A stretch of 64,000 nucleotides of DNA from an uncultured Thermoleophilia bacterium (GCA_963715985.1 CAVQSP010000009.1:1-64000); one strand, 5' to 3'. Counted from the first letter of the stretch, positions 10,906 through 35,169 are shown. A program made the numbers and translations. The notes: generated by a model not told the origin, from the sequence alone.

Positions 10906-10915
10906 GGCCGGCCTC

Positions 10916-11947: not shown

Positions 11948-12047
11948 CCTCTTGTCTGGTGGGCGGGACGCCTCGTCGGGCGTGTCATTGTAGCAAACGG
12001 GAGCCCGGAGGCTCCCGATGGTGGCGTGGGCACGTGCCGGTCGACGG

Positions 12048-12281: not shown

Positions 12282-12513
12282 CGGTCCTCCCCGAGAGACG
12301 GGCACGCGGCTCCCGGGCAGGGAACCGCCACGCCAGAACCATGTGCTTTTGTTATGCCCCCGCCCGCGGCAGTCCGTAACCTCGCGGCGGAAGGCGCGGC
12401 GAGCACACGGCGGCGCCCTTATCCGCGTATCGATAACTATAACCTTTGCTGATTTGCAGGAGCAGCTTTACTTATGGACAATAGGCAGGCAGTCAACGAC
12501 CGCGAGGATGTCC

Positions 12514-17316: not shown

Positions 17317-17759
17317 TGCCGCTCACCCACCGCGGCCGCGAGATCCTGGACCGCGTGCCCGGCGGCTCGCTGCAGAGCACCGTCGGCGTCGGCTGCGAGA
17401 TCGTCCGCCACGAGGAGCTCTGCGTCGGCTGCGGCACCTGCGCCAGGAACTGCCCCAGCGGCGCCTCCGAGCGCGGCGACTTCTTCGACGTGAACCAGCT
17501 CCTGGACGCGCCGGAGGGCAGCCGCCGCGGCGAGCTCGGCGCTGCGCTGCGCCGGCTCATGCAGCACGAGCCCGACGGCCCCGTCGAGGTGCCGGAGCGC
17601 GTCACCGTCTACCGCACCATCGTCTACGACGACGAGAAGTGCCTCGGCTGCGGCACCTGCGCTCGCGGGCTGCCCGGCCGAAGCGATCGAGGCGCGGCCG
17701 CCGAAGGCCGACGCCGCGCCGGCCCAGCCCGGCCGCAGGCCGAAGGGGCGCCGGCATGA
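17316..17759 (+). CDS. 2x[4Fe-4S] ferredoxin-like protein (indel near 17668)
   Basis: CVGCGTCARNCP, and CLGCGTCARG(CP) after correcting one base. Confidence 0.75.
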   Translation: MPLTHRGREILDRVPGGSLQSTVGVGCEIVRHEELCVGCGTCARNCPSGASERGDFFDVNQLLDAPEGSRRGELGAALRRLMQHEPDGPVEVPERVTVYRTIVYDDEKCLGCGTCARGLPGRSDRGAAAEGRRRAGPARPQAEGAPA

Positions 17760-21383: not shown

Positions 21384-22050
21384 CGCCAAAGACAACCCGT
21401 ACGCGCACATCGCCGACGACGCGTTCGCGGCCGCCCCGCGACGCGACCCCGACCTCGTCAAGCGCATCCTCGAGGACCCGCGCATGCACGACCACAAGGA
21501 CGGCTTCCAGAGCTGCATCCAGTGCGGCGTCTGCACCTCCGGCTGTCCGGCGGCGCGCTTCACCGAGTACTCGCCGCGCGAGACGGCGCGCCGCGCTCTG
21601 GACGGCGACGTCACGCTGCTCGAGGACGACAACGTCTGGTACTGCTACTACTGCTACACCTGCCAGAGCCGCTGCCCGCGCCACAACAGCGTCGCGGTGA
21701 TCAACCAGGTCGTGCGCGGCATCCAGGTGGAGAACGGCCGCGGCCGCCGGCACGTCGAGATGTTCGCCGAGTGGTGCGGCAACTTCTACGAGAAGGGCAT
21801 GGGCGGCGACCCGCACCTCATGTTCCCGGCCATCGGCGAGGCGTGGGGCGAGAAGTGGACGGACTACATGGAGCATCTGCTCGAGATCCGTGAGGAGCTC
21901 GGGCTGGGAGACCTCTTCCCGCCGGACGAGGTGGTCAAGGAGGTCCAGACGATCTTCGAGGCGACCGGCTTCAAGGAGCGCCTGGCGGCCGTGCGTGGAG
22001 ACGCAGCCGAGCACGGGAACGCGGCCGCCGAGGAGCCCGGCGACAGCTGA
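21376..22050 (+). CDS. hdrC: Heterodisulfide reductase subunit C-like
   Basis: CIQCGVCTSGCP, YSPR, WYCYYCYTCQSRCPR. GAGGAG RBS. Confidence 0.88.
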   Translation: MPDAKDNPYAHIADDAFAAAPRRDPDLVKRILEDPRMHDHKDGFQSCIQCGVCTSGCPAARFTEYSPRETARRALDGDVTLLEDDNVWYCYYCYTCQSRCPRHNSVAVINQVVRGIQVENGRGRRHVEMFAEWCGNFYEKGMGGDPHLMFPAIGEAWGEKWTDYMEHLLEIREELGLGDLFPPDEVVKEVQTIFEATGFKERLAAVRGDAAEHGNAAAEEPGDS

Positions 22051-22134: not shown

Positions 22135-22983
22135 ATGGAGCCAAGCGGAGGGGCGGCCGCGCGGCTGCGGCAGCGCGCGGGCGCGGTGATCGGCGTCGTC
22201 CTCGCGCACAACCTGCCGAGGCTCGCGGCCGCACTCACCTACTACACCGTCCTCTCCCTGCTGCCGGCGCTCCTCGTGATGGTCGCGCTGCTCGGCCTCA
22301 TCGGCCTGTCTCCGGAGACCGTGAACGAGCTCCTCGACGCGGTCGGGGACCTGGGAGGGCGCTGGCTCACGGACTTCGTGTCGGGCGCCCTCGACAGCGT
22401 CCTCAACTCGCACTCTTCGGGACTTGTGCTCGGCCTCGGCGCGCTGTTCGCCGTCTGGGCCGCGTCCGGCTACGTGGGCGCCTACATGTGGGCGGCGGAC
22501 AGGATCCACGACGTGGAGACGCCGAGGCCCTTCTGGCACGAGCTCCCGCTGCGCGTAGGTCTCGCCCTGCTGCTGCTGGTGCTGCTCGCGGCCACGGCCG
22601 CGGGCCTGACCGTCGTCGGGCCCGTCGGCTCCTGGATCGCGGACGCCACCGGCATCGGCAACGGCCCGCTCCACCTCTGGACCTGGATCAAGTGGCCGCT
22701 CCTCGTCGTCGTCGGCCTCCTGGTGTTCGGCCTGCTCTACCGCTTCGGGCCGGCGGAGCGAGGGCGCGGTGTCTGGAGCCTGCTGGCGGGCGCCGCGACC
22801 GCCGTGCTCCTGTGGCTGCTGGTCTCGGCGGTCTTCGGCTACTACCTGGCCAACTGGGCGTCGTACAGCCGCGTGTACGGCGCCCTGGCGACCGGCATCG
22901 CCTTCCTCGTGTGGGCCTGGCTGCTGAACCTCGCGGTGCTGGCCGGCGCCGAGGTGGAACGAGCGCTGGGGCGGCGGGCCTGA
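22135..22983 (+). CDS. YihY/virulence factor BrkB family membrane protein
   Basis: AAALTYY..LSLLP, WAASGY, YSRVYGALA, GAEV. Confidence 0.88.
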   Translation: MEPSGGAAARLRQRAGAVIGVVLAHNLPRLAAALTYYTVLSLLPALLVMVALLGLIGLSPETVNELLDAVGDLGGRWLTDFVSGALDSVLNSHSSGLVLGLGALFAVWAASGYVGAYMWAADRIHDVETPRPFWHELPLRVGLALLLLVLLAATAAGLTVVGPVGSWIADATGIGNGPLHLWTWIKWPLLVVVGLLVFGLLYRFGPAERGRGVWSLLAGAATAVLLWLLVSAVFGYYLANWASYSRVYGALATGIAFLVWAWLLNLAVLAGAEVERALGRRA

Positions 22984-23000
22984 AGGGACTGCGTCTCGGC

Positions 23001-23353
23001 TCAGTCCTCGTCGATGACGATTCCGTGAGCTGGATCATCGGAGCCTCGGGGTCCAGACGCACCGTCAGCGACCCGCACTGCGCGCACGCCGGCTGAGGCG
23101 CGTTCGCGCTGAACTCGTGACTACAGTCCATGCATACCGCCGAGACCGGCCTGTGCTCCACGTGCAGAGCTGCGCCGAGGAAGAGGTCGTCGTCCTGCGT
23201 CAGCATCTCGAAGTACATGATGATCGAGTCTTCGGTGAAATCCGCAGCGGGCGTCATGACGATGTGCACGTCGGTGATCCTCTTCGCGTTGCCCTCCACC
23301 GCCGCGTCGCGTGCGCGGTCGATGATCCCCTGAGTGATGCCCAGTTCATGCAC
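23001..23353 (-). CDS. hypA: Hydrogenase nickel metallochaperone HypA (indel near 23022)
   Basis: MHELGI start, CMDC and CAQC. Corrected end is IVIDED-stop. Confidence 0.88.
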
Positions 23354-23656
23354 GGTGGCCCCTTTCTCCCAGGCTGAGCCCTCGGAGTGCTTCTGTCCCC
23401 ACTCACCAGACGCGCTTCAGCCTGGCTGCCCCGTCTCCGCGCGGCATCATCGTGGCCGATTCTAGCAAGTCCGCGGCAGCAGCTCGCCGACAGGCATGTC
23501 CGGCGCCCGCCGCGTCCGAACTGCGTGCGTGGTGCCACGAGGCCTCCGTGCTCGGCGGTGACGGATCCGATGCGCCGCGCCGGCGCGCCACACGGCGCGG
23601 GGCCCGAACGGACTGTGTCCCCGCGCCGACGCCCGCAAGCGCAGGCGCGCCCCTCG

Positions 23657-24139
23657 TCAGACCTCGTCCAGGAGGGTCCCGATCTCCTCGAGCATCTGGC
23701 GCACCAGATCCGGGAGAGCGGCCTCAAGCTCCGGCCGGAGGCGCTCTCCGAACGTGAGATTGTCGCTGATCTCCACGGCGAGGATGTGGATGTCCCCCTC
23801 GCCGGGCACGTGGATACCCATTCGCCGGCCGAGCTCCATGGCGGTGGCGAAGTTGGCGTCGTGCACGTTGTTAAGGTGCATCGTCTCGCGCAGCGCCTCA
23901 CCGTCGAAGCGATACCAGTCGCCCGGCCTGCCGCCGTCGGTCATGATGGAATCCAGCACGATGAGACGGTCGAACCCAGCCACGACGTCGAGCAGCTCGA
24001 GGCCTCCGGTGCAGCACTCCTCCTGGACGACCAGGTCGTGGCGTGACTGGAGCTCGCGGCCGAGACCTTCCGCCAGCCGGATACCGATCGCGTCATCGCT
24101 CAGGATGGGGTTGCCCATACCAAGCAGCAGCGTCCTCAC
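23657..24139 (-). CDS. Hydrogenase maturation protease
   Basis: LGMGNPILSDDAIG, GGLELL, IVLDSI, NVHD. Confidence 0.92.
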   Translation of the reverse strand: MRTLLLGMGNPILSDDAIGIRLAEGLGRELQSRHDLVVQEECCTGGLELLDVVAGFDRLIVLDSIMTDGGRPGDWYRFDGEALRETMHLNNVHDANFATAMELGRRMGIHVPGEGDIHILAVEISDNLTFGERLRPELEAALPDLVRQMLEEIGTLLDEV

Positions 24140-24142
24140 GCG

Positions 24143-25609
24143 TCAGCACCCGCGCCGGAACTCATGGCTCACCTCGCCGCCCCGATGAAAGCGCACGCGC
24201 AGCGGCATCTGGCCGGGCAAGCTGTGCGTCGCGCAGCTGTAGCAGGGATCGAAGGCGCGGAACGCCATCTCGACCATGTTGAGGATCCCCTGATCGGGCT
24301 CCTTGCCGGGCTGGATCAGCGTCTCAGCCACCTTCTTCGTCACCATCTGGATGGGAGCATTGTTGTTCGTGGTCCCCACGATGAGGTTGGCGCTCGTGCA
24401 GATGGCGTTCTCGTCGCAGGTGTAGTGGTGGGTGAGCGTGCCGCGCATGGCTTCGACGATGCCTACGCCCTCGCCGGTCACGCGCTCGGGGATGACGCGG
24501 TAGGCGTCCCCGGTGATCTCGGGGTCGTCGCAGTACATCTGCAGCGTCTCGGCGTTCTGCACCATCTCCACAAGTCGCGCCCAGTGCTGGGCGAGCAGCA
24601 TCCTGCTGGGATGACCGCCGAGGGTCGCGAACATCTCCTCGTACGCCTCCTGGGCCTTGGGCGTCGCCATGCGGTCGGCGACGTTGAGGCGGGCCAGCGG
24701 CGTGGCGCAGTAGATGGAGGAGTCGATGCCCTCCGCGAACCCCTTCCAGCCGCGCTTCTTGAGGTACGGGAACTTGAGGTAGGTCCAGGGCTCGACGTGC
24801 TCGGCCACGTAGTCGGCGTACTCGGGGGCGTCATAGCGGTAGAGCTCGGCGCCCTCGAAGTCGACCACGCGGACCTGGCCGTCGTAGAAGTCCGGCGCGT
24901 TGTTCTTGTCGACCAGGCCCATGTTCTGCACGTCGAGCGTGTAGGGGCCGTTGGCGATGATGTCGAGGTACGTGGGGTTGGCGAGTACGACATCACGGAA
25001 GAGCTGCAGGGAGAACTGGGTGAACTCGTACAGCTCTGCCACCATCGGCCGGATCTGCTCGAGCTCGTCCGGCTTGAGGCCTTTGGCCACGCCGCCGGGG
25101 ATGCACCAGATGTCCTGCGTGGAGCGTCCACCGATGATGCGCTGGATCTCCTGCGCCTTGCCGCGCGAGGCGATGACGGCGCCGCCGATCTCGAGCCCCA
25201 CCTTGGCGACCACGCCGAGCACGTTGCGGATCGCGGGGTCGGCGTCCGGGCCGAGCACGAAGTCGGGCGCCGCGAGCGCATAGAAATGGGCGATGTGGCT
25301 GTGGATGTAGTGCGCGTTGTAGTACATGCGGCGCAGCTTCACTGCCAGCTCTGGCACCTCGCCGCCGAAGCAGCCGTCCACGGCCTTGGCGCTGGCCATA
25401 TGGTGGCTGGCCGGGCACACGCCGCAGATGCGCGTGACGAGGCGCGGCAGCTCTTCGATGGGCCGGCCCACGACGAAGCGCTCGAAGCCGCGCAGCTCGG
25501 GGATCTGGAAGTAGCAGTCCTCCACGGCCCCGGCGTCATCGAGGAAGATCTCGATCTTGCCGTGGCCCTCGAGGCGGGTGATGGGATCGATGCTGATCTT
25601 CCTCGTCAT
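24143..25609 (-). CDS. mvhA: [NiFe]-hydrogenase large subunit, group 3c (MvhA)
   Basis: TRLEGHGK, L1 RICGVCP, EAMRGTL, L2 DPCYSCATH plus a cleavable extension. Confidence 0.92.
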   Translation of the reverse strand: MTRKISIDPITRLEGHGKIEIFLDDAGAVEDCYFQIPELRGFERFVVGRPIEELPRLVTRICGVCPASHHMASAKAVDGCFGGEVPELAVKLRRMYYNAHYIHSHIAHFYALAAPDFVLGPDADPAIRNVLGVVAKVGLEIGGAVIASRGKAQEIQRIIGGRSTQDIWCIPGGVAKGLKPDELEQIRPMVAELYEFTQFSLQLFRDVVLANPTYLDIIANGPYTLDVQNMGLVDKNNAPDFYDGQVRVVDFEGAELYRYDAPEYADYVAEHVEPWTYLKFPYLKKRGWKGFAEGIDSSIYCATPLARLNVADRMATPKAQEAYEEMFATLGGHPSRMLLAQHWARLVEMVQNAETLQMYCDDPEITGDAYRVIPERVTGEGVGIVEAMRGTLTHHYTCDENAICTSANLIVGTTNNNAPIQMVTKKVAETLIQPGKEPDQGILNMVEMAFRAFDPCYSCATHSLPGQMPLRVRFHRGGEVSHEFRRGC

Positions 25610-26571
25610 TGGCGGACGCTCCTTTGCAGCAGCGAGGCGGGCGCGCTGAAGCGATAGGCGAACCCCGCGAAGTCGGGCAGGCCTTCAAGGATGCGATCGA
25701 TCTCCGCCGGATCGTTGCTGTCGATCACGGACACGACGGCCGAGAGCAGCTTGGCTCCCTGGTCGACCACCCCGGGTAGCGGACCGTAGCAGCCGCGGCA
25801 CGGGATGCCGCTCGTCGGGCAGCGGGCGCCGCAGCCCGCGCGGGTGGCAACGCCCGCGCACAACACGCCCTGCTCCAGCAGGCACACCTCCGGGTCGGCC
25901 ATGATCTGCCAGGGCCGGTGAAAGCCGGTGATCTTCTTCTCGTTCTTCGTGCGTGCGCACTCGTCGCACAGGGCCGTCTCCGACGCGCCCACGACCGAGC
26001 CGAGCGGCGGTAGCTGGCCCTGGACCACGGCCAGCACGACCGCCTTCACCTGGTCGGCGGCCGGCGGACACCCCGGGACGTAGTAGTCGACGGGCACGAT
26101 ATCGTCGAGCTTGTAGACGCGCTTGTAGAAGCCGGGGATGGTGAGCATCGTGCCGTTCATGCCCGTCTCCGGACGCGGCAGCGTGATGTTGCCCTTCTCG
26201 ATGCTCGGGTTGTCGAGGTACGCGGTACTCATGATCTCGTCCCGGGAGACGAAGTTGGCGAGTCCCGGGATGCCGCCGAGGTGGGCGCACGAACCGAAGG
26301 CCACGAGCAGCTTGCTCTTGCGGCGCAGGAGCTTCGCGATGTGCTCGTTCTCGGAATTGCGTACCGCCCCGTTGAACAGCGTCAGGTCGAGCTCGCCGTC
26401 CTGCATCGCCTCCACGTCCGCGTACTTGCCGTCGACGGCGATGGGCCAGAGGCGGATGTCGGCGGCGGCGGCCACGTCGAGGATGAACTCGTTCGTGTCA
26501 AGGACCGCGACGTCGCAGCCGCCGCACGCGGCGCCCCAGTACAGCGCGATCTGCAGTTTCTCGCCGGCCAC
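25606..26571 (-). CDS. mvhG: [NiFe]-hydrogenase small subunit (MvhG)
   Basis: ACGGC, GSCAHLGG, PGCPP, CDEC, CLLEQG.LC.G..TRAGC, CRGCYG. Confidence 0.92.
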   Translation of the reverse strand: MAGEKLQIALYWGAACGGCDVAVLDTNEFILDVAAAADIRLWPIAVDGKYADVEAMQDGELDLTLFNGAVRNSENEHIAKLLRRKSKLLVAFGSCAHLGGIPGLANFVSRDEIMSTAYLDNPSIEKGNITLPRPETGMNGTMLTIPGFYKRVYKLDDIVPVDYYVPGCPPAADQVKAVVLAVVQGQLPPLGSVVGASETALCDECARTKNEKKITGFHRPWQIMADPEVCLLEQGVLCAGVATRAGCGARCPTSGIPCRGCYGPLPGVVDQGAKLLSAVVSVIDSNDPAEIDRILEGLPDFAGFAYRFSAPASLLQRSVRQ

Positions 26572-26574
26572 GGC

Positions 26575-27009
26575 TCACCTCTCCACTGCGTCGCCCGCCA
26601 GCGCCATCTTCACGCGGCTGGGCCCCAGCGCCCGGAGGCGCTCCGTCATGTCGTCGACGATGTCGGCGAAGCGCATGCCCTCGCTGGCGCTGACCCACTC
26701 GAGACGGACGCGCTCGTCCTCGATACCGAAGTCGGCGAGCATCCTCTTGAGCAGCGGCATGCGGCGCATCGTCTTGTAGTTGCCCTCCGAGTAGTGGCAG
26801 TCGCCGGGGTGGCAGCCGCAGACCAGCACCCCATCGGCACCCTCGGCCAGCGCTTTGATCACGAACGTCGGGTCGATGCGGGCCGAGCACATGACGCGGA
26901 TCACGCGTACGTTCGAGTGGTAGTGGATGCGGCTCGTCCCGGCCAGGTCCGCTCCCGAGTAGGAGCACCAGTTGCAGAGGAAGCCGACGATCTTGGGCTC
27001 GAAGCTCAT
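26575..27009 (-). CDS. mvhD: MvhD [2Fe-2S] subunit
   Basis: [41 protein letters not shown]. Confidence 0.93.
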
Positions 27010-28730
27010 GCCAGCACCCCCGCTATCTCGGCGAAGATCTGTTGGTCCGTGAAGTGCCTCGCCTTGATGGCCGCCGAGGGGCAGGTGGCCACGCAGGCTC
27101 CGCACGCCTTGCACAGGGCGCTGATGACGTGACTGCGCTTCTTCTCCGCGTCGAACTCGATGGCCGAGTACGGGCAGATCTCGTTGCAGACCCGGCATCC
27201 GGAGCAGAGCTCTTCATCGACCGCCGCGAACATCGCGTCGATCTCGAGCTTGCCGCGGGAGATCTTGCCCAGGATGCGGCCCGCGGCGGCGCGTGCCTGG
27301 GCGACCGAGTCCGGGATGTCCTTGGGCGCCTGGCAGGCGCCGGCGATGTAGATGCCGTCGGTCGTGGTCGCCACAGGGTCCAGCTTGGGGTGGCTCTCGA
27401 TGAACCAGCCGTCCTTGTCCTGGCTGATATTGACGAGGTGGGTCACCGCCTCGGCGTCCTCTCGCGGCTCCATCCCCACCATGAGGATGATGAGGTCGGC
27501 CGGCAGCTCGATCTGCTCGCCGGACAACTGCTCGTCGACCACGATGAGCATCTCGCAGTCGTCGCCGGGGTCGGCGCGCCTCACCACCGGGTGCTCGCCC
27601 TTGCCGTACATCAGGAACAGCGTCTTGACCTCGGCACTGCGCCGGTAGAAGTCCTCGCAGCCCTTGCCGAACGCGTGCATATCGATGTACACGTCCGACA
27701 CGTAGCTGCCGGGCAGCGCCGACTTGACCTCATGCGCGTACTTGAGCGCCGTCATGCAGCACACCCGCGAGCAGTAGCCGTTGAACTCCTCGCTGCGGCT
27801 GCCGACGCAGTGGATCACCGCCACGTACTGAGGCAGGCGGCCGTCCTTCATCTCGATGCGGCCCTGACGCAGCATGCGCTCGAACTCGAAGGACGTGATC
27901 ACGTTGGGCAGCTTGCCGTAGCCCAGGTGCGTCGCCCGCGAGGCATCGAACTCCCTGTAGCCGGTGCACACGATGACGCTGCCGACGTCGACGACCTGCC
28001 GCGGTGGGTCTTCACCGGACGAGCGGTGGACGAGGGTGGCCTTGAAGTTGCCGACGAACCCCTCGAGCTTCTCGAGCTCCGTCTGGACCATGACCTCCAC
28101 GTGCGGATGCTCCATGACGCGTGTGATGCGGTCGGTCAACATGTCGTGGGCCGAGTCCAGATAGGGCGCCGTCAGGTCGACGCGCCCTATGTTGCCGCCC
28201 AGCGCCCGCTCTCTCTCGACGAGGTACACGAGCTTGCCCGCGTTGGCGAGCTCGAGGGCGGCGGACAGGCCGGCGATGCCGCCGCCCAGGATCAGCGTGT
28301 TCGGGCACATGTCGACCGACATGCGCTCAAGCGGCTCATGCTGCGCGACCCGGTACACGGCTGCGCGCACCAGGTCGGTGGCCTTCTCCGTCGCCTCGGA
28401 CGGGTCGTCGTGGACCCAGCTGCACTGCTCGCGGATGTTGGCCATCTGCACGAGATACGAGTTGACGCCTGCCGACTCCGCGGCGCGCCGAAACGTGGGC
28501 TCGTGCATCCTGGGGCTGCACGCGGCCACGACGATGCGCTCCAGGCCTTCATCCTGGATGTCCTGCGCGATCATCTCCTGGCCGGGGTTGGAGCACATGT
28601 ACTTGTACGAGCGCGCGACGGCGACGCCGGGGAGTGCGGACGCAGCCTTCACGACTGCGTCGCAGTCGACGACCTTGGCGATGTTCGTGCCGCAGTTGCA
28701 GATGTACACGCCGATGCGTGGCTCCTCCAT
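27006..28730 (-). CDS. hdrA: HdrA-like flavoprotein with N-terminal cluster domain and C-terminal ferredoxin but no inserted ferredoxin
   Basis: [67 protein letters not shown]. Confidence 0.9.
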
Positions 28731-28742
28731 CTCTTCACCCCC

Positions 28743-29912
28743 TCAGGCCGTGTGGACCTGCGTCTGCGGTTCGGCACCTCTGTGCGCCGCCGCGGTTCCG
28801 CCCGCGCCCTCGCGGGCCAGAGCTGTGGCGCGCACCTGGGCCAGGTACATCGCCAAGGGCCGGTAGGCGAGGTGCGACCATTTGCTGAACGGCACCTCGA
28901 GCGCCAGCATCGGCACGACCATGGACAGGTGCACGATGTAGGTGACGTTGGCGGCCGCGTCCATGCCGCTGCGATGCAGGATGTGCTGCAGGATGCCCGT
29001 GAGCGCGACGACGAGGATCAGGACGAGGAAGATCCAGTCGGACTCGTGCGAGTGGCGATACTGCGCCGCCGACTTCGTCACGCGATTGCGCAGGAAGAGG
29101 ATCGTGGCGATCACGAGGCCGGCCGTCGCGAGGTAGCCGGCCACGTGGACCGACCAGTCGATGGCCGGCCCTGACGCCATGTCGCTCAGGAAGAACATGA
29201 TGAGCACCAGCATGGTGACGTAGCTCAGCATGAGCGCCAGATGGGTCACCCAAGGTGTCTTGCGCTCGCACTTGCTGTAGCGGGCCTGCGTGAAGAAGTG
29301 GGTGGGCAGCATCCACACGCTCGTGACATAGCTGCCCAGTGTCGTGGGCAACTCCTTGTCACGCCCCATCGTGAACCACCACATGCGCGCGGCGTTGCTC
29401 AGCAGGAACACGAGGAGCACGCCGGCAAGGATCCAGTCGAAGACGTGGATGCTCGAACTCGGCAGGAACGCGTTGGCGCCGTCGTAGTCAGACAGGCTGC
29501 CTTGCGACATGCCGAACAGCGTGAAGCCGATGGCCGTGAGGATGGCCACGAGGATGATCGCGCCCAGCTCCCAGCGCCACGACTTGTAGAACAGCCGGGA
29601 GATCCCCGTCCAGTCATAGCGTGAGGTGAGCCAGCGCCGCAGGCTCATCATCGTCTCCCCGGGCTCGGCGTCGCGAGGGCACTGCTCCGAGCATTCGCCA
29701 CAGTAGTAGCAGAGCCAGGGGTCCAGCTGGCTCTCGAGCTTCTCCTCGAGCCCCATCTGCAGGTAGCGCATCGGTTTGCGCGGGAACACGTACGGAGCCG
29801 CGGAGAAGGGGCATACGGCAGAGCAGTTACCGCAGTGGTAGCAGTTCATCACGTCCTCGGCCCCGTATGGCTCAAGCTCTTCGATGAGTTTGGGATTGGC
29901 TCTGATAGCCAT
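28743..29912 (-). CDS. QmoC-like membrane subunit (HdrC-type 2x[4Fe-4S] domain plus cytochrome b-like TM domain)
   Basis: CYHCGNCSAVCP, WLCYYCGECSEQCPR, several TM helices with His residues, PFSKWSHLAYRP. Confidence 0.85.
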   Translation of the reverse strand: MAIRANPKLIEELEPYGAEDVMNCYHCGNCSAVCPFSAAPYVFPRKPMRYLQMGLEEKLESQLDPWLCYYCGECSEQCPRDAEPGETMMSLRRWLTSRYDWTGISRLFYKSWRWELGAIILVAILTAIGFTLFGMSQGSLSDYDGANAFLPSSSIHVFDWILAGVLLVFLLSNAARMWWFTMGRDKELPTTLGSYVTSVWMLPTHFFTQARYSKCERKTPWVTHLALMLSYVTMLVLIMFFLSDMASGPAIDWSVHVAGYLATAGLVIATILFLRNRVTKSAAQYRHSHESDWIFLVLILVVALTGILQHILHRSGMDAAANVTYIVHLSMVVPMLALEVPFSKWSHLAYRPLAMYLAQVRATALAREGAGGTAAAHRGAEPQTQVHTA

Positions 29913-29921
29913 GCGGCCCTC

Positions 29922-31733
29922 CTACGACGCTGCGACCAGGCTCTTGGCGCGAGCCTCGATGTCCGTGAGGCTGACGTTGGCGACGCTCTCGAGTCCCCGC
30001 CCCGTCATGGCGCCCTCAAGCGCCCGCGCCGCGACCGCGGATGCTTGCGCCACCGTGTCGGGGATGTCTTTGGGGCCCTGGCAGACACCGGCGACGTACA
30101 CACCGCCGCGCTCCGTGCCCGTGGGGTCGCCGTTATAGTCGGCCTCGGTGAACCATCCGTAGCTGTCGCGCGGGATGTCCAGCATCCCGGCGAGCTCGTC
30201 CGAGCGCTCTGCCGGCACGAGGCCGACGGCGAGCAGCACCATGTCCACCGGGAACTCCATGACGCTGTCGCTGAGGATGTCCTCGCCCTTCACGTACATC
30301 TGGCCGTCCTGCGACGTCACCGTCGCCGAACGGCCCCTGATGATGAACGTGCCTTCGTCCTGGATGCGCTCGAAGAAGGCCTCGTAGCCTTTGCCGAACG
30401 CACGCATGTCGATGTAGAACTCGTAGCAGGGCGCCTCGGGCAGCTTCTCCTTCACGAGATGGGCGAACTTGAGCGAGTACATGCAGCACACGCGGGAGCA
30501 GTAGGCGTTGTAGTTCGTGTCGCGCGAGCCCACGCAGTGGATGATGGCCACGCTTCGCGGCGCGGCGCCCTCGGGGTCGAAGACCCATTCGTCGACCTTC
30601 TTGCGCTTGTTGTGACGCAGCGTCTTGGTGACGATGCGGCCGCCCGTCGGGCCCGACGCGTTCGTGAGCCGTTCGAACTCCAGGGCCGTGAGGACGTTAG
30701 GGTGCACGCCGTAGCCGTATTGCTCGATCCTCGCGGCGTCGAGCGTCTCGTAGCCGGTCGCCACGATCACGCTGCCGACCTCGACCTGCATGACGTCGCC
30801 GTGCGCATCCAGGTCGATGCAGTCCTTGGGGCACTTCTTCGCGCACGCCCCGCACTTCTGCCCGTTGGTCTGCACGTAGGTGCACGATGCTTCGTCGACC
30901 AGGTAGGCGTTGGGCACCGCCTGCGGGAAGGGGATGTACACGGCCTTGCGGTCGGCGATGCCGGCGTCGAACTCACTGGGCACGCTGACTGGACAGACGT
31001 CACTGCACATGGCGCAGGCCACGCAGGCGCTCTCATCCACCCGGCGTGCGTGTCTGAGGATCGTGGCCTTGAACGCCCCGGGGACGCCCGTGACCGACTC
31101 GACCTCGGAGTACGTGAGGAGGTCGATCATCTCGTGCTGGCCCACGGCCACCATCTTCGGGGTCAGGATGCAGGCCGCGCAGTCGAGCGTGGGGAAGGTC
31201 TTGTCGAACATGGCCATGTGGCCGCCGATGGTGCCCGAGCGCTCGACGAGGTAGACCCTCTTGCCGCCGTCGGCGATCTCCAAGGCGGCCTGGATGCCCG
31301 CGATGCCGCCGCCGATGACCAGCGTGGCGGCGCCCCACTTCGTGTCCTTCGGCTGTGCGGCGAGCGTGAAGGGAACGCCGTACACCGCGCACGCGGCGAT
31401 CGCCTTGGCCCGCGCGGTCGCGCCTTCCCCGCCCGTGGCGTGCTCGCGGAACGAGGCGAGCCTCACCTCATCCGGCTCGCCGCCCGCAAGCGCCATGGCG
31501 CGCGTGAAGGCCGGCTTGAAGAAGCCGGGGGAATCCCCGGCGATGACGATCCGGTCGAGATGCTCGGCGGCGATCTCGTCGGCGAGCACTTTTGGGTCGA
31601 GCTTGGGCATCACGCCAAGCTGCCTCACGACCTCCACTTGAGGCAGGTTCGCCACGTAGCGGGCGACGGACTCGAGGTTCACGCCGTCGCCGTCGTCGCC
31701 GCCGGCCCGGCACTCATAGACTCCGATCCTCAT
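29922..31733 (-). CDS. hdrA: HdrA-like flavoprotein with degenerate N-domain and inserted ferredoxin but no C-terminal ferredoxin
   Basis: GGGIAG, KTFPTLDCAAC, CVACAMCSDVCP, CGACAKKCP, EFER, CSRVCC, DMRAFGK, GPKDIPD. ATG at 31733 after GGAGG. Confidence 0.88.
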   Translation of the reverse strand: MRIGVYECRAGGDDGDGVNLESVARYVANLPQVEVVRQLGVMPKLDPKVLADEIAAEHLDRIVIAGDSPGFFKPAFTRAMALAGGEPDEVRLASFREHATGGEGATARAKAIAACAVYGVPFTLAAQPKDTKWGAATLVIGGGIAGIQAALEIADGGKRVYLVERSGTIGGHMAMFDKTFPTLDCAACILTPKMVAVGQHEMIDLLTYSEVESVTGVPGAFKATILRHARRVDESACVACAMCSDVCPVSVPSEFDAGIADRKAVYIPFPQAVPNAYLVDEASCTYVQTNGQKCGACAKKCPKDCIDLDAHGDVMQVEVGSVIVATGYETLDAARIEQYGYGVHPNVLTALEFERLTNASGPTGGRIVTKTLRHNKRKKVDEWVFDPEGAAPRSVAIIHCVGSRDTNYNAYCSRVCCMYSLKFAHLVKEKLPEAPCYEFYIDMRAFGKGYEAFFERIQDEGTFIIRGRSATVTSQDGQMYVKGEDILSDSVMEFPVDMVLLAVGLVPAERSDELAGMLDIPRDSYGWFTEADYNGDPTGTERGGVYVAGVCQGPKDIPDTVAQASAVAARALEGAMTGRGLESVANVSLTDIEARAKSLVAAS

Positions 31734-31794
31734 CTCGCCCTCCGTGGCCGCGTCGCCTGGTGACCTGGCAGCGGGCACAGCCCCGCTGCGGACC

Positions 31795-31843
31795 TTGTGA
31801 AACCGCCCACATGGCATACTAGACTTACCCTACGGAGCGTCAA
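31795..31843 (-). promoter_or_regulatory. Sigma70-type promoter with an overlapping Rex/CRP-like operator for the hdrA-qmoC-mvh operon
   Basis: Minus strand TTGACG-N16-TAGTAT, followed 3 nt later by ATGTGGGCGGTTTCACAA. Confidence 0.65.
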
Positions 31844-32084: not shown

Positions 32085-33386
32085 GTGGGCCTGCAGTCAA
32101 CGCTTCGCTATCTGGATCCGTTCCGCGAACGGGGGACGCGGCACAAGATCAGCGCCGACGAGCGCGCCACGCTGCGCATGGTCAACCAGAAGGTCGCCGC
32201 CAAGCAGTCCCTCAACGATATCGCCGACTTCCTCTTCGAACGCACGAGGTCACTCGTGCCCTGCGATCGCATCGGGCTGGCGTTCATCGACGACAGTGGC
32301 GAGCGCGTCATCGCCCACTACGCCCGGGCCGACTATCAGCCTCTCCTGCTGACGAAGGGGTACGCCGCCGACCTCAAAGGCGGCTCGCTGGAGCGGGTCA
32401 TCAAGAACGCCCAGCCGCGCATCATCGACGATCTCGAGACGCACGCCCACGAGCACCCCGCGAGCCACTCGTCTCACCTTCTGCTGCGCGAGGGTGTCCG
32501 ATCCAGTATCACGTGTCCTCTGACCGTCGAGGGGCGCGTCGTCGGGTTCATGTTCCGCGATTCGCGCCGCCCCGGCGCCTTCAACGCCCACCACGTCGAT
32601 CTGGAGATGGCCATCTCCGAGCGTCTGAGCCAAGCCGTCGAGAAGGCGTGGCGCATCGAGCAGCTTACGGCCGCCAATCAGGCGTACCTGGAGATGCTCG
32701 CGTTCGTGAGTCACGAGATCAAGAACCCCATTGCGTCGCTCGTGACGGATGCGCGCCTGCTGTCCCAGGGGTATCTCGGCGCTCTCGAACCTCAGCAGGT
32801 GGACAAGGTCGACCGGATGATCGGCAAGGGGGAGTATCTCCTGAGCCTCGTGCAGGACTACCTGGATCTCGCCCGGATCGACGGGGGCGGTCTCACCCTC
32901 ACCAAGCGCGAGGATGTGGACATCGTGACGGACGTCATCGCGCCGTCCATCGACCTGGTGCGCGCGGACATGGATCGCCGCGGCATGCAGCTGGAGCTGG
33001 ACCTTCCGCGCGACACGGTGAAGGCCGAGTGTGATCCCATGCTGTTGCGCATCGTGATGGTGAACCTCATCGGCAATGCGGTGAAGTACGGCGACGAGTC
33101 CGGCACCATCCGCGTGCGAGTCCTGCGGGAGCCCTCCCGACTCGAGGTCTCGGTGTGGAACGAGGGTCCCGGGTTCCAGCCTGAGGACCGTGGGCGCCTC
33201 TTCCAGCGGTTCTCGCGCCTGCGAACGCCGCACGGCGAGACCAGGCGCGGGACCGGCGTCGGGCTGTACAGCGCCTGGCGCATCGTGCGCCTGCACAACG
33301 GGCGCATCCGCGCCCGCTCCGAACCGGGCTCCTGGGCCGAGTTCTCCTTCGAGCTCGCGCAGCCGCTCGATCTTCCCGGGACCTGA
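32085..33386 (+). CDS. Cytoplasmic GAF-domain histidine kinase
   Basis: N-terminal GAF, H-box FVSHEIKNP, NLIGNAVKY, NEGPG, GTGVGL. Confidence 0.9.
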   Translation: MGLQSTLRYLDPFRERGTRHKISADERATLRMVNQKVAAKQSLNDIADFLFERTRSLVPCDRIGLAFIDDSGERVIAHYARADYQPLLLTKGYAADLKGGSLERVIKNAQPRIIDDLETHAHEHPASHSSHLLLREGVRSSITCPLTVEGRVVGFMFRDSRRPGAFNAHHVDLEMAISERLSQAVEKAWRIEQLTAANQAYLEMLAFVSHEIKNPIASLVTDARLLSQGYLGALEPQQVDKVDRMIGKGEYLLSLVQDYLDLARIDGGGLTLTKREDVDIVTDVIAPSIDLVRADMDRRGMQLELDLPRDTVKAECDPMLLRIVMVNLIGNAVKYGDESGTIRVRVLREPSRLEVSVWNEGPGFQPEDRGRLFQRFSRLRTPHGETRRGTGVGLYSAWRIVRLHNGRIRARSEPGSWAEFSFELAQPLDLPGT

Positions 33387-33397
33387 GAGAGCGCCTC

Positions 33398-34498
33398 ATG
33401 GATGCGGCTACACTCCCAGATGCCGAGACTCGCGCGCGGACGGCGACAGGCCGCGCCGACGGCGGACGCGCCGGCGGGCGACCGCGGCCGCGACGCCCCA
33501 TGGTCCTGCGGGTGGTGCTCGTGAACGCAGTGTTGGCGGCGTGCGTGGCCGGCGGGAGCGTGATGGCCGCGAGGACGGCCGGAGACCGGCAGGGCCTCGT
33601 CGCGGCGGCGCTGGTCATCGGCGCAGCGTGCGCAGCCGTACTGGTCAACATCCTCTTCGTGGGCCCGGCGGGAAGGCTGCTGGGCGACCTCGCCGGCGCC
33701 ATGGAGAACGCGCACCGCGGTGAGATGGAGTGTCGCGTGAAGGACGACTGGCGCGACCCGGACCTCCGCCGGCTGTCGACATCGTTCAACGAGATGTGCC
33801 GCCGCCTCGGGAACGAGTCTCTGAACTACGCGGAGAGGCAGCTCGGCAGCGTGGAGGAGGAGCGCCGGCGGATCGGACGGGAGCTCCACGACGAGACCAG
33901 CCAGACCCTCACCGCCACGCTCGTGCGCCTGGATCTGTGCGACAAGGCGATGCAGGACCACGACGCGGCTGAAGCCCACCGTCAGGCCGTCACCTGCAAA
34001 GAGCTCATCGGCCACGCGATCGAGGAGATCAAGCTGCTCGTGTACGACCTGCGGCCCGTGATGCTCGATGACTTCGGCCTGGTCCCGACCCTGCGCTGGT
34101 ACATCCAGTCGCACCTGCAGGATGTGGGGCCTGCGATCGACACCGACTTCGAGGAGGCCGATCGGCGCCTTCCCGGCGAGATCGAGACCGCGCTGTATCG
34201 CATCTCTCAGGAAGCTCTGGGCAACGCCGTCCGGCACGCCGAGGCCACCAAGATCCATCTGCGTCTGGTCACCAAGCCCGGGTTCGTGAGCCTGGCGGTG
34301 ATCGACAACGGGCGGGGCTTCGAGATGGACTCCCTGCACCACAGCGACAGCCGCCGCGGCGTAGGATTGGTCTCCTTGAGAGAGCGCGTCGAGCTGGTGG
34401 GGGGGACGGTGAACGTCGAGTCGGCAATCGGCCGCGGGACACGTTTGTACGTGCTCATACCGCTGAACGGCGAGACCACCGGCGAGGGAAGACCATGA
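33398..34498 (+). CDS. Membrane histidine kinase, HisKA_3 (NarX/UhpB type) with HAMP
   Basis: Two TM helices, ERRRIGRELHDETSQ, LRPVMLDDFGL, QEALGNAVRHA, DNGRGF. Confidence 0.9.
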   Translation: MDAATLPDAETRARTATGRADGGRAGGRPRPRRPMVLRVVLVNAVLAACVAGGSVMAARTAGDRQGLVAAALVIGAACAAVLVNILFVGPAGRLLGDLAGAMENAHRGEMECRVKDDWRDPDLRRLSTSFNEMCRRLGNESLNYAERQLGSVEEERRRIGRELHDETSQTLTATLVRLDLCDKAMQDHDAAEAHRQAVTCKELIGHAIEEIKLLVYDLRPVMLDDFGLVPTLRWYIQSHLQDVGPAIDTDFEEADRRLPGEIETALYRISQEALGNAVRHAEATKIHLRLVTKPGFVSLAVIDNGRGFEMDSLHHSDSRRGVGLVSLRERVELVGGTVNVESAIGRGTRLYVLIPLNGETTGEGRP

Positions 34499-35169
34499 GT
34501 CCGAGCGAGAGAAGTGAACCTATCAGGGTCCTGCTTGTCGACGACCACGCCATCCTGCGCCAGGGCGTGCACGCCCTGCTCGCGCGCGAGCCGGACATCC
34601 TCGTGGTGGGAGAAGCCGGCGATGGGCAGGAGGCGCTGGACCAGATGCCCGAACTGCTCCCCGACGTCGTCATCATGGACATCGTCATGCCCCGCATGAA
34701 CGGCCTCGAGGCGACACGGCTGCTCAAGGAGCGGTATCCGCATGTCCGTACCCTCATCCTCAGCATGTACGACGACCAGGAGTATGTCGTGCAGATCATC
34801 CAGGCGGGCGCCGCCGGCTACGTGCTCAAACGGGTGGTGACCGAGGATCTTGTGAGAGCCATCCACGAAGTCCATGCGGGAGGCTCGTTTCTCTATCCGC
34901 CCATCGCGGCCACGCTCATCGGCGACTACCTGCGCGTCACTCAGGGCGAGCAGCCCGCCGACCAGGGCGAACCCCTCACGGCCAGGGAGCGCGAGGTGCT
35001 CAAGCTGATCGCCGAGGGCAACACCAACATCGCGATCGCCGAACGCCTCGGCCTGAGCCGCAAGACCGTCGACACCCATCGCGCGCACGCCATGCGCAAG
35101 CTGGACCTCCACGAGGTGACCGAAGTCGTGAAGTACGCGCTGCGCACGGGGCTCATCACGCTGGACTGA
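34495..35169 (+). CDS. NarL/LuxR family response regulator
   Basis: LLVDDH, IMDIVMP, LTAREREVLKLIAEG, KTVDTHR. Confidence 0.93.
   Translation: MSPSERSEPIRVLLVDDHAILRQGVHALLAREPDILVVGEAGDGQEALDQMPELLPDVVIMDIVMPRMNGLEATRLLKERYPHVRTLILSMYDDQEYVVQIIQAGAAGYVLKRVVTEDLVRAIHEVHAGGSFLYPPIAATLIGDYLRVTQGEQPADQGEPLTAREREVLKLIAEGNTNIAIAERLGLSRKTVDTHRAHAMRKLDLHEVTEVVKYALRTGLITLD

What the first reader, a model, noticed from the sequence alone, without database searches (positions are those of the whole stretch)
23001..31733. QmoC-anchored HdrA-HdrA-MvhDGA operon: a possibly membrane-coupled group 3c hydrogenase
Seen: hdrA, qmoC-like, hdrA, mvhD, mvhG, mvhA, protease and hypA in one run, with no hdrB and no aprAB/sat in the window. 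Established: MvhADG normally partners soluble HdrABC, while QmoABC links the quinone pool to AprAB. Inference: H2 electrons could bifurcate at HdrA between ferredoxin and menaquinone via the heme-b QmoC, or the reaction could run as confurcation. I know of no biochemical characterisation of such a complex.
Basis: partly seen in the sequence, partly recalled or inferred. Interest (0 to 1): 0.78.

Follow-up and report, generated by a model that had tools for sequence, protein, structure and literature searches.

The report
Membrane-anchored hydrogenase with QmoC-like cytochrome
A soil or wetland actinobacterium carries a tightly packed operon, shared by several bacterial phyla, that joins a cytoplasmic hydrogen-oxidising enzyme to two flavoproteins and a membrane cytochrome, probably to split electrons from hydrogen between the membrane quinone pool and ferredoxin.

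Summary
On the minus strand, 31817 to about 23000, lie hdrA1, a qmoC-like gene, hdrA2, mvhD, mvhG, mvhA, a maturation protease and hypA. The first six genes, in the same order, are complete in 47 of the 80 related loci examined. Their labels span Actinomycetota, Acidobacteriota, Myxococcota, Krumholzibacteriota and Eisenbacteria.

The QmoC-like protein keeps all eight Fe-S cysteines and the conserved histidines. Its model has an HdrC-like head on a NarI-like membrane domain. It falls below NCBI's QmoC cut-off and outside the canonical QmoC clade.

The genome, 88.8% complete, shows no aprA or dsrA. It does show a futalosine-pathway gene, an acetyl-CoA synthase gene and many ferredoxin oxidoreductases.

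The two HdrA copies have complementary domains, which points to an obligate heterodimer.

One claim is wrong: an hdrB-like gene and two hdrC-like genes lie in the window at 11788-22050.

The proposed H2-to-menaquinone-plus-ferredoxin bifurcation is the best reading, but it is already in print as a hypothesis for Archaeoglobi methanogens. No biochemistry was found. This is a bacterial member of a described, uncharacterised kind.

The parts
29922..31817 (-). hdrA1: HdrA-like flavoprotein, 631 aa. It has the inserted ferredoxin domain and the Cys194/Cys197 equivalents. Its N-terminal cluster cysteines are degenerate and it has no C-terminal ferredoxin domain.
   Evidence: NCBIfam HdrA2, E 6e-164. 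Aligned with PDB 5odc_A, residues 28-601 to 3-563. Conservation in relatives.
28743..29912 (-). qmoC-like gene: HdrC-like two-cluster head plus a six-helix NarI-like cytochrome b domain, 389 aa.
   Evidence: NF038018, 195.7 bits against a cut-off of 300, full length. AF2 pLDDT 92.6. Foldseek matches HdrC and NarI. 8 Cys and H156, H224, H289, H328, H347 are present in 79-80 of 80 loci.
27006..28730 (-). hdrA2: HdrA-like flavoprotein, 574 aa. [quoted passage not shown] It lacks the inserted ferredoxin domain and the Cys194/197 equivalents.
   Evidence: NCBIfam HdrA2, E 1e-183. Aligned with PDB 8rvu_a, 1-233 to 9-242 and 240-572 to 320-652. Conservation.
26575..27009 (-). mvhD: [2Fe-2S] adaptor subunit. 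Its start overlaps the hdrA2 stop as ATGA.
   Evidence: Pfam FlpD, E 7e-55; NCBIfam VhuD, E 1e-38. Translation. Overlap.
25606..26571 (-). mvhG: hydrogenase small subunit. No twin-arginine signal is visible at its N-terminus.
   Evidence: NCBIfam VhuG, E 1.5e-61. Translation.
24143..25609 (-). mvhA: [NiFe] hydrogenase large subunit, 488 aa, with both CxxC metal-site motifs and a C-terminal tail for the protease. Its start overlaps the mvhG stop as ATGA.
   Evidence: NCBIfam VhuA, 366 bits. Best solved relatives are Mvh subunit A, 9sw2_F and 5odc_F, E 1e-114. Motif Cys/His present in 47-49 of 47-49 relatives. Overlap.
23657..24139 (-). Hydrogenase maturation endopeptidase.
   Evidence: Pfam HycI, E 5e-8; TIGR00072, E 2e-23. 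Present behind mvhA in most complete loci.
22688..23353 (-). hypA nickel chaperone. The domain covers residues 1-100. The Arg/Pro-rich tail beyond about 23020 overlaps brkB and is probably a read-through caused by a one-base difference.
   Evidence: Pfam HypA, E 2e-19. Translation. Extra C after 23020 in a related contig.
32085..35169 (+). Divergent GAF histidine kinase, second histidine kinase and LuxR/NarL-type response regulator: candidate regulators of the operon.
   Evidence: Pfam. All three lie in the same divergent position in 8 of the closest loci (L009, L012-L017, L019). The second kinase plus regulator lie there in 5 more. The regulatory role is inferred.

Best explanation
The six gene products form one membrane-bound complex.

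Proposed electron path:
1. MvhAG oxidises H2 in the cytoplasm.
2. MvhD hands the electrons to the C-terminal ferredoxin domain of HdrA2.
3. They reach a bifurcating FAD in an obligate HdrA1/HdrA2 heterodimer.
4. The high-potential electron leaves through the Fe-S cluster of the flavin domain, the two clusters of the HdrC-like head of the QmoC-like protein and its b-type haems, and ends on menaquinone.
5. The low-potential electron leaves through the single complete N-terminal cluster, built from the HdrA2 cysteines plus the Cys197 equivalent of HdrA1, and the inserted ferredoxin domain of HdrA1, and ends on ferredoxin.

Overall: 2 H2 + menaquinone + 2 oxidised ferredoxin give menaquinol + 2 reduced ferredoxin. 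The strongly downhill quinone branch pays for ferredoxin reduction, so that H2 can feed CO2 fixation and 2-oxoacid synthases.

Shown here: gene content, conserved order, cofactor-binding residues, folds and genome context. Inferred: that the proteins assemble, the direction of flow, bifurcation itself, and menaquinone and ferredoxin as the acceptors.
For: - Synteny: 47 of 80 related loci carry hdrA1, qmoC-like, hdrA2, mvhD, mvhG and mvhA in this order. 6 more are cut by contig ends. Labels span at least five phyla.
- Coupling: ATGA overlaps at hdrA2/mvhD and mvhG/mvhA.
- QmoC-like protein: 8 Fe-S Cys in 79-80 of 80 loci. H156, H224, H289, H328 and H347 in 80 of 80. H224, H328 and H347 are also invariant in an alignment with 8 of the 10 canonical QmoC representatives. 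The model has pLDDT 92.6 and matches HdrC and NarI chains.
- Complementary HdrA copies. HdrA1 keeps Cys194/197 in 54 of 54 relatives and seven of the eight inserted-domain Cys in 54-55 of 54-55 (the eighth, C333, in 37 of 55). It has no Cys at 38 or 95 and only 1 of 54 at 127. HdrA2 keeps the four N-terminal Cys in 58-59 of 58-59 and eight C-terminal-domain Cys in 57 of 57. It has no Cys at the 194/197 equivalents in 0 of 58.
- The domain-to-function map and the heterodimer logic come from passages of PMC9012536.
- MvhA is nearest to solved Mvh large subunits, E 1e-114.
- Genome: MqnA/D family hit of 222 bits. No aprA above 38 bits and no dsrA. A CdhC/acetyl-CoA synthase hit. 13 POR_N matches, some of them pieces of one gene. 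One haem-copper oxidase.
- Potentials: menaquinone -74 to -75 mV and ferredoxin about -450 mV, as given in the abstract listed and the passage. H2 at -414 mV is textbook knowledge.
Against: - No biochemical or genetic evidence exists for this complex in any organism.
- Assembly was not tested. No complex prediction was run.
- The haem ligands are inferred from conservation and fold. No residue-level match to the NarI ligands was obtained, and Foldseek gave no match at E <= 0.001.
- The QmoC-like protein fails NCBI's QmoC cut-off (195.7 against 300).
- menA was not found, so menaquinone rests on one futalosine-family hit in an 88.8%-complete, 7.3%-contaminated genome.
- An HdrB/HdrC-type cluster lies next door in this window and could in principle take electrons from Mvh.
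- If the quinone site lies on the outer side of the membrane, as in NarI, quinone reduction would consume membrane potential. The energetic gain is therefore unclear.
- Both HdrA copies keep flavin-binding motifs, so which flavin bifurcates is unknown.
Confidence: 0.55

Rival explanations
1. A plain, non-bifurcating cytoplasmic uptake hydrogenase. H2 electrons run through the HdrA proteins as a wire to the QmoC-like cytochrome and menaquinone. Ferredoxin is not a substrate.
For: The H2-to-menaquinone step is strongly downhill by itself (potentials as). The membrane cytochrome and the hydrogenase are the only parts with an obvious substrate. No ferredoxin gene lies in the operon.
Against: Two flavoproteins with conserved flavin motifs would be needless for a wire. 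So would the inserted ferredoxin domain, seven of whose eight Cys are kept in 54-55 of 54-55 relatives. Every characterised HdrA module cited in the passages read serves bifurcation or confurcation.
Confidence: 0.15
2. A Qmo-like confurcating complex. Menaquinol and H2 together reduce a mid-potential soluble acceptor not encoded in the operon, such as a sulfur-carrier persulfide, a DsrC-like disulfide or an APS-reductase-like enzyme. This follows the proposal for QmoABC with a hydrogenase as co-donor.
For: A hydrogenase as co-donor of Qmo is one of the hypotheses in PMC3333476 (passages). The same genome has a 60%-identical QmoC-like paralogue in a cluster with DsrE2 and TusA sulfur carriers. 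20 of 80 related loci are of that type, and they interleave with the Mvh type in the tree.
Against: No aprA above 38 bits and no dsrA in the genome, which is 88.8% complete. No sulfur-carrier gene lies in the Mvh-type operon in this window, and one search found none between hdrA1 and the protease in the other loci. There is no catalytic HdrB/CCG subunit in the operon.
Confidence: 0.12
3. Mvh really serves the neighbouring soluble Hdr-type cluster (HdrB-like, HdrL-type HdrA, MvhD, HdrC-like at 11788-22050). The HdrA1/QmoC-like/HdrA2 genes form a separate complex that merely shares the operon.
For: The neighbouring cluster has HdrB-like (345.5 bits), HdrC-like and two MvhD-type domains but no hydrogenase of its own.
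Against: That neighbourhood is not conserved. The HdrC-like query found 0 of 53 Mvh-type loci. The HdrB-like query found only 21-25%-identical hits in 7 of 53. The six-gene order is conserved across phyla. mvhD is translationally coupled to hdrA2. The neighbouring cluster shows several frame switches in this assembly.
Confidence: 0.05
4. The complex runs backwards as an H2-evolving confurcating enzyme that oxidises menaquinol and reduced ferredoxin.
For: Group 3 hydrogenases are often called bidirectional (passage).
Against: Menaquinol at about -75 mV is some 340 mV too positive to reduce protons. Reduced ferredoxin supplies far less driving force than that deficit. It would need a large input from the membrane potential.
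Confidence: 0.03

Closest known systems
Mvh / two HdrA / QmoC gene cluster of Ca. Methanoglobus nevadensis and Ca. M. hypatiae (Archaeoglobi). bioRxiv 10.1101/2022.12.01.518715 and 10.1101/2023.09.08.556235; passages read.
   Same: The same listed parts: MvhA, MvhG, MvhD, two HdrA homologues and a membrane cytochrome b QmoC with an HdrC part. AprAB is absent from that genome too. The same printed hypothesis: H2 electrons bifurcated to menaquinone and ferredoxin. The cluster is reported as highly expressed in the culture.
   Different: The cluster is archaeal, from thermophilic methanogens; here it lies in bacteria of at least five phyla. I could not obtain the archaeal sequences, so identity, gene order and the complementary HdrA pattern could not be compared. 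Neither case has biochemistry.
[quoted passage not shown]
   Same: QmoC architecture: an HdrC-like head plus a dihaem cytochrome b. Two HdrA-like flavoproteins. An MvhD-type module next to one of them; it is fused in QmoB according to the passage, and a separate but coupled gene here.
   Different: The protein is below NCBI's QmoC cut-off (195.7 against 300 bits). It lies outside the canonical clade (96* branch). No aprBA or dsr genes were found. The gene order is A-C-B-like, with a full hydrogenase attached. The expected flow is towards the quinone, not from it.
HdrABC-MvhAGD of methanogens (PDB 5odc, 8rvu, 9sw2).
   Same: MvhA, MvhG, MvhD and HdrA are the closest solved relatives. H2-driven flavin-based bifurcation to ferredoxin is the model mechanism.
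   Different: There is no HdrB and no separate HdrC. The heterodisulfide branch is replaced by a membrane cytochrome. The HdrA homodimer is replaced by two complementary paralogues, as proposed for tandem HdrA genes of ANME archaea (PMC9012536).
EtfABCX, a membrane-associated bifurcating flavoenzyme (abstract of PMC10734219, listed).
   Same: The same logic: a mid-potential donor reduces menaquinone and low-potential ferredoxin together.
   Different: The proteins are unrelated. The donor is NADH, not H2.

Membership tests
QmoC (NCBIfam NF038018, equivalog of the AprAB-linked Qmo complex) | Score at or above the curated cut-off of 300 bits | tested here: not met
   195.7 bits over model positions 4-358 of 360. 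Of 74 full-length representatives of the wider family, only 10 pass the cut-off.
QmoC (NCBIfam NF038018, equivalog of the AprAB-linked Qmo complex) | HdrC-like N-terminal domain with two CxxCxxCxxxC motifs | tested here: met
   All 8 Cys are invariant in alignment A2 with canonical QmoC and present in 79-80 of 80 loci. Foldseek matches HdrC chains at probability 1.00.
QmoC (NCBIfam NF038018, equivalog of the AprAB-linked Qmo complex) | Membrane cytochrome b domain of NarI/HdrE type with conserved histidines | tested here: met
   Six long helices plus a C-terminal helix in the model, pLDDT 92.6. NarI chains match at probability 0.99-1.00 over about 190 columns, but with E > 0.1. H224, H328 and H347 are shared with canonical QmoC. 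Haem binding itself is not testable here.
QmoC (NCBIfam NF038018, equivalog of the AprAB-linked Qmo complex) | Genomic partnership with aprBA (and sat, dsr) | tested here: not met
   aprA best hit is 38 bits against a cut-off of 642. There is no dsrA hit. The genome is 88.8% complete. sat was not searched.
QmoC (NCBIfam NF038018, equivalog of the AprAB-linked Qmo complex) | Placement inside the canonical QmoC clade | tested here: not met
   Quick IQ-TREE of 120 rows. The 10 canonical representatives sit on one side of a 96* branch. The window's protein sits in an 84-row clade with 100* support on a branch of length 1.34. The tree carries long-branch warnings.
Group 3c [NiFe] hydrogenase (MvhADG type) | Large subunit with N- and C-terminal CxxC nickel-iron site motifs and a cleavable tail | tested here: met
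   Both motifs are seen in the alignment with 9sw2_F. The Cys/His are kept in 47-49 of 47-49 relatives. The protease gene follows.
Group 3c [NiFe] hydrogenase (MvhADG type) | Closest relatives are Mvh/Vhu large subunits; formal HydDB class | tested here: inconclusive
   The best solved matches are Mvh subunit A, E 1e-114, ahead of NAD-linked and bifurcating NiFe enzymes. The best NCBIfam match is VhuA at 366 bits, below that model's 800-bit cut-off. HydDB was not available.
Group 3c [NiFe] hydrogenase (MvhADG type) | MvhD and MvhG subunits, HdrA next door, cytoplasmic small subunit | tested here: met
   FlpD E 7e-55; VhuG E 1.5e-61. No twin-arginine motif at the MvhG N-terminus, by eye only.
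HdrABC heterodisulfide reductase | HdrA flavoprotein with flavin-domain Fe-S cluster | tested here: met
   Both copies align with solved HdrA, E 1e-136 and 6e-158. The flavin-domain cluster Cys are kept in 55 of 55 and 57-58 of 58 relatives.
HdrABC heterodisulfide reductase | Catalytic HdrB with CCG domains in the same unit | tested here: not met
   No CCG protein lies among the eight genes. The only HdrB-like gene lies about 9 kb away on the other strand, and that neighbourhood is not conserved.
Mvh / 2x HdrA / QmoC cluster described in Archaeoglobi | Same gene content as described in print | tested here: met
   The descriptions list MvhAGD, two HdrA and an HdrC-QmoC cytochrome b. The window holds the same set.
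Mvh / 2x HdrA / QmoC cluster described in Archaeoglobi | Sequence-level orthology with the archaeal genes | not testable with these tools
   The archaeal sequences could not be obtained. The one fused representative that I followed (P0126, L103) has no MvhA or MvhG beside it and is a different, HdrB-bearing form.

The most novel reading that the evidence does not exclude
This is a widespread bacterial respiratory module that no one has characterised: the first hydrogenase-driven flavin-based bifurcation onto the quinone pool.
- It is built on an asymmetric HdrA1/HdrA2 heterodimer with a single electron path.
- It lets soil and wetland Actinomycetota, Acidobacteriota and others make reduced ferredoxin for CO2 fixation from H2 while charging the menaquinone pool.
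- The same QmoC-like anchor is re-used with an NAD(P)H-oxidising HdrL input and sulfur carriers in a sister module, so it would be a plug-in platform for different donors.
Probability: 0.45. Interest if true: 0.8.

Novelty: new member of a known kind. Interest (0 to 1): 0.55.

Why it matters
Group 3c hydrogenases in bacteria are routinely annotated as partners of soluble HdrABC. Two of the genome papers read here do so.

If the module works as inferred, many soil, peat, wetland and sediment bacteria would couple H2 oxidation directly to the quinone pool and to ferredoxin. That would change how their H2 use, CO2 fixation and energy budgets are modelled. It would also add a third input type, H2, to quinone-linked bifurcation, known so far from the NADH-driven EtfABCX.

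The complementary HdrA pair offers a natural single-path version of the HdrA dimer, which would help to dissect bifurcation.

Because the hypothesis is already printed for Archaeoglobi, the new value here lies in three points:
- the bacterial breadth of the operon;
- the heterodimer logic;
- the sister module with sulfur carriers.

Tried and rejected
The origin of P0126 and P0138 is therefore unknown.
- I guessed that P0126 (584 aa, QmoC-like plus HdrC) was the Archaeoglobi form. Its contig (L103, 51% GC) holds a 764-aa QmoC-like/HdrC/HdrB-like fusion, HdrA, MvhD and a double HdrA, but no MvhA or MvhG. The guess is rejected.
- The solved-structure search found no QmoC or other full-length relative. 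Only HdrC-type heads matched.
- Foldseek gave no match at E <= 0.001. The NarI matches are by probability and TM-score only. VIA-align was not run.
- One literature query failed on a term that was too short and was re-sent (0 papers). PMC10553843 was listed as holding 'QmoC', but the word is not in its main text.
- Sequencing runs: no run holds half of the sampled words. The best shares, 0.22-0.41, are in wetland, freshwater-sediment, sediment and soil metagenomes.
- Two RNA libraries hold small shares. Their contigs, 85-99% alike, lie only between 24185 and 31475. One of them (255 bases, 6 differences) bridges the hdrA1/qmoC-like junction. These libraries were found with this very stretch, may contain DNA and are contigs. 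I therefore count this as no more than a hint of transcription in relatives. The lack of cover over the protease and hypA is no finding.
- No complex prediction was made. I judged that a pass would come largely from likeness to solved HdrA-HdrC structures.
- menA search: no hit.

Full report
**What is there**

The window has about 70% G+C, so raw ORF lists are crowded with false frames. Filtering by third-position G+C leaves one run of genes on the minus strand between 31817 and about 23000. Pfam and NCBIfam name them as follows:
- hdrA1, 29922-31817, 631 aa.
- A qmoC-like gene, 28743-29912, 389 aa.
- hdrA2, 27006-28730, 574 aa.
- mvhD, 26575-27009.
- mvhG, 25606-26571.
- mvhA, 24143-25609, 488 aa.
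- A hydrogenase maturation protease, 23657-24139.
- hypA, from 23353 downwards.

Gaps between the first genes are 9 and 12 bases. hdrA2/mvhD and mvhG/mvhA overlap as ATGA.

**Two corrections to the observation**

First, the window is not free of hdrB. The plus strand from 11788 to 22050 holds another Hdr-type cluster:
- An HdrB-like protein (NF041780, 345.5 bits against a cut-off of 450).
- An HdrA with a GltD/NfnB-like insertion. This is the 'HdrL' type named in PMC2702500 (passages).
- An MvhD, a small ferredoxin and an HdrA-MvhD.
- Two HdrC-like pieces.

Second, the hypA frame does not stop after its domain. It runs into the convergent brkB gene. A related metagenome contig has one more base after 23020, so this is probably a one-base difference or an assembly error.

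**Is the arrangement more than chance?**

The QmoC-like protein has thousands of relatives. A scan of one genome per species found 302 loci that encode a relative. The best 80 were fetched with 9 kb on each side, and I laid the window's proteins on them with tblastn.
- 53 of 80 have Mvh genes directly behind the qmoC-like gene.
- 47 of these carry all six genes in the window's order and strand. The other 6 are cut by a contig end.
- 20 of 80 belong to a second type (see 'A sister module').
- 7 are neither. 5 of them are cut by contig ends. 2 acidobacterial loci have hdrA1, qmoC-like and hdrA2 without Mvh behind them.

The record titles name Thermoleophilia, Gaiellales and other Actinomycetota. 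They also name Terriglobia, Holophagae, Aminicenantes, Vicinamibacterales and Thermoanaerobaculaceae (Acidobacteriota), Krumholzibacteriota, Eisenbacteria, and Anaeromyxobacteraceae or 'Deltaproteobacteria'. All 80 are metagenome-assembled genomes, and some bins may be mislabelled.

The closest relatives (85-90% identical QmoC-like protein) are Thermoleophilia, which is the likely class of this genome. In the 8 closest loci the divergent GAF kinase, second kinase and NarL-type regulator of the window (32085-35169) are also in place. The neighbouring HdrB/HdrC cluster is not found near the operon elsewhere.

**The QmoC-like protein**

- It matches NCBI's QmoC model over its whole length but scores 195.7 bits against a cut-off of 300.
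- Of 74 full-length representatives of the wider family, only 10 pass that cut-off.
- In an alignment with 8 of those 10, several residues are invariant: the eight Fe-S cysteines, C215, H224, R277, D292, H328, K344, H347 and R351.
- Within the 80 loci, H156, H224, H289, H328 and H347 are present in 80 of 80. H256 and H313 are present in 78 of 80 and H205 in 74 of 80.
- An AlphaFold model from 87 sequences has pLDDT 92.6. It shows a small N-terminal domain, six long helices and a C-terminal helix.
- Foldseek matches the head to HdrC chains and the membrane part to NarI, the dihaem subunit of nitrate reductase. Probability is 0.99-1.00 and TM-score on the target is 0.44-0.46, but no match reaches E 0.001.
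Which four histidines bind the two haems was not resolved.
- In a quick maximum-likelihood tree of 120 sequences, the canonical QmoC representatives sit on one side of a 96* branch. The Mvh-linked and sulfur-linked proteins form an 84-row clade with 100* support on a long branch. The tool warned of long branches.

The protein works like QmoC in architecture but is not a member of the AprAB-linked family.

**The two HdrA proteins**

Compared with solved methanogen HdrA:
- HdrA1 keeps the flavin domain, the inserted ferredoxin domain and both cysteines of the Cys194/Cys197 pair. It has lost three of four N-terminal cluster cysteines and the whole C-terminal ferredoxin domain.
[quoted passage not shown] It lacks the inserted domain entirely and has Ser and Asp at the Cys194/197 places.
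- These features hold in the relatives. HdrA1 has Cys194/197 in 54 of 54 and seven of the eight inserted-domain Cys in 54-55 of 54-55. HdrA2 has the N-terminal Cys in 58-59 of 58-59, the C-terminal-domain Cys in 57 of 57 and no Cys at the 194/197 places in 58.

According to the passages of PMC9012536 that I read, the methanogen enzyme works as follows:
- It receives electrons from MvhD through the C-terminal ferredoxin domain.
- It sends one pair out through the flavin-domain cluster to HdrBC.
- It sends the other pair through the N-terminal cluster, which borrows Cys197 from the partner subunit, and the inserted ferredoxin domain to ferredoxin.
- Tandem HdrA genes with complementary losses are proposed there to form heterodimers.

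The pair in this window fits that pattern exactly. Only HdrA2 can dock MvhD, and mvhD is translationally coupled to it. Only one complete N-terminal cluster can form, from HdrA2 plus Cys216 of HdrA1. Only HdrA1 can hand electrons to ferredoxin.

**The hydrogenase**

- MvhA is nearest to the solved Mvh large subunits (E 1e-114), ahead of NAD-linked enzymes.
- It has both metal-site motifs and a C-terminal tail.
- MvhG shows no export signal by eye.
- Group 3c is therefore supported. HydDB itself could not be run.

**Genome context**

The genome is a 4.35-Mb, 22-contig assembly, 88.8% complete with 7.3% contamination.
- No aprA above 38 bits and no dsrA.
- No menA, but a strong MqnA/MqnD-family hit for the futalosine route to menaquinone.
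- One haem-copper oxidase.
- An acetyl-CoA synthase (CdhC) gene split over two frames.
- 13 matches to the 2-oxoacid:ferredoxin oxidoreductase N-domain, some of them pieces of one gene.
- A second NiFe hydrogenase on two look-alike contigs.

A quinone pool, sinks for menaquinol and users of reduced ferredoxin are thus plausibly present. A sulfate-reduction partner for a Qmo complex is not.

**Mechanism**

The best reading is a membrane-anchored complex that oxidises H2 and splits the electrons at an HdrA flavin. One goes through the HdrC-like head and the haems to menaquinone. The other goes through the inserted ferredoxin domain of HdrA1 to ferredoxin.

With H2 at -414 mV (textbook), menaquinone at about -75 mV and ferredoxin at about -450 mV (abstract listed), the quinone branch is strongly downhill. 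It can pay for the slightly uphill ferredoxin branch. The reverse reaction, confurcation to H2, is not feasible without a large energy input.

Shown: gene content, order, coupling, cofactor ligands, folds and genome context. Inferred: assembly, direction, bifurcation and the two acceptors. I give this 0.55.

The rivals are:
- a plain H2:quinone oxidoreductase (0.15);
- a Qmo-like confurcation onto an unknown sulfur-linked acceptor (0.12);
- Mvh serving the neighbouring soluble Hdr cluster (0.05);
- H2 evolution (0.03).

**A sister module**

The genome has a second QmoC-like gene, 60% identical, on contig 10. Its cluster also holds an ArsR-type regulator, an HdrL-type HdrA with a GltD-like NAD(P)H module (995 aa), a second HdrA, DsrE2, a 136-aa protein and TusA.

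20 of the 80 loci are of this type, all labelled Actinomycetota or unlabelled. In the tree they interleave with the Mvh type. The same anchor thus appears to be used with H2 or with NAD(P)H as input. The sulfur carriers leave room for a sulfur-linked acceptor.

**Comparison with what is known**

- The same gene set was described as a 'fascinating' and 'unique' cluster in Ca. Methanoglobus nevadensis and Ca. M. hypatiae: MvhAGD, two HdrA and a cytochrome b QmoC with an HdrC part.
- Those papers print the same speculation, that it links H2, ferredoxin and menaquinone. They report high expression in the culture (passages read).
- A hydrogenase as co-donor of Qmo was also considered in PMC3333476.
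- I found no paper that describes the cluster in bacteria, and none with biochemistry (full-text searches). The library lacks most subscription journals. The Appel et al. 2021 review cited by those papers was not available to me.
- Two genome papers on related bacteria simply write 'MvhAGD-HdrABC' or discuss other Hdr clusters.

**Verdict**

It is a bacterial member of a kind already described and hypothesised in archaea. Interest: 0.55.

Noticed in passing
window 11788-22050 (+): A second Hdr-type cluster. It holds an HdrB-like gene (11788-13488), an HdrL-type HdrA with a GltD/NfnB-like insertion, MvhD (16834-17316), a small ferredoxin (17313-17756), an HdrA-MvhD, and two HdrC-like pieces (20150-20659 and about 21450-22047). 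The coding frame switches without a stop near 15100, 18400, 20480, 21000 and 21300. These are either assembly indels or a decaying cluster.
   Followed up: partly
G000 contig 10, 120700-134549 (locus L008): A paralogous module: ArsR-type regulator, HdrL-type HdrA (995 aa), HdrA (578 aa), DsrE2, QmoC-like (379 aa, 60% identical), a 136-aa protein of no family, and TusA. 20 of 80 related loci are of this type. What its electron acceptor is, and what the sulfur carriers do, is unexplained.
   Followed up: partly
window 22688-23353 (-) and 22135-22983 (+): The hypA frame lacks a stop after its domain and overlaps the end of the convergent brkB-family gene by about 300 bases. A related wetland metagenome contig has an extra C after 23020.
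   Followed up: partly
window 9907-11947 (-): Ferrochelatase and uroporphyrinogen decarboxylase genes lie directly beside the Hdr clusters. Haem synthesis next to genes for a haem b protein may be coincidence.
   Followed up: no
G000 contigs 19 (8401-9567) and 6 (14696-15862): A second [NiFe] hydrogenase large-subunit gene appears on two contigs with identical scores. This suggests duplicated contigs or two strains in the bin, which has 7.3% contamination.
   Followed up: no
G000 contig 11, 144815-145280: The acetyl-CoA synthase (CdhC) match is split over two frames. This is another sign of single-base indels in the assembly.
   Followed up: no
L103 5570-16156 (metagenome contig, 51% GC): A 764-aa fusion of a QmoC-like cytochrome with HdrC- and HdrB-like parts. 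It is followed by a full HdrA, MvhD, a 392-aa ORF, a 1021-aa double HdrA, an HdrC-like gene and a 294-aa ORF. There is no hydrogenase. It is a membrane-bound Hdr of the 'HdrF' sort, with a fused HdrA heterodimer.
   Followed up: partly
L021, L022, L033, L037, L057, L069, L084 (upstream of the operon): In these loci a second, more distant HdrA-MvhD-MvhG(-MvhA-protease) set, 44-65% identical, lies next to the QmoC-linked operon. Some genomes therefore carry two Mvh systems side by side.
   Followed up: no
L061 and L066 (Acidobacteriota): hdrA1, qmoC-like and hdrA2 occur without mvhG or mvhA within 9 kb downstream. An MvhD-like gene lies upstream. The electron donor of this form is open.
   Followed up: no
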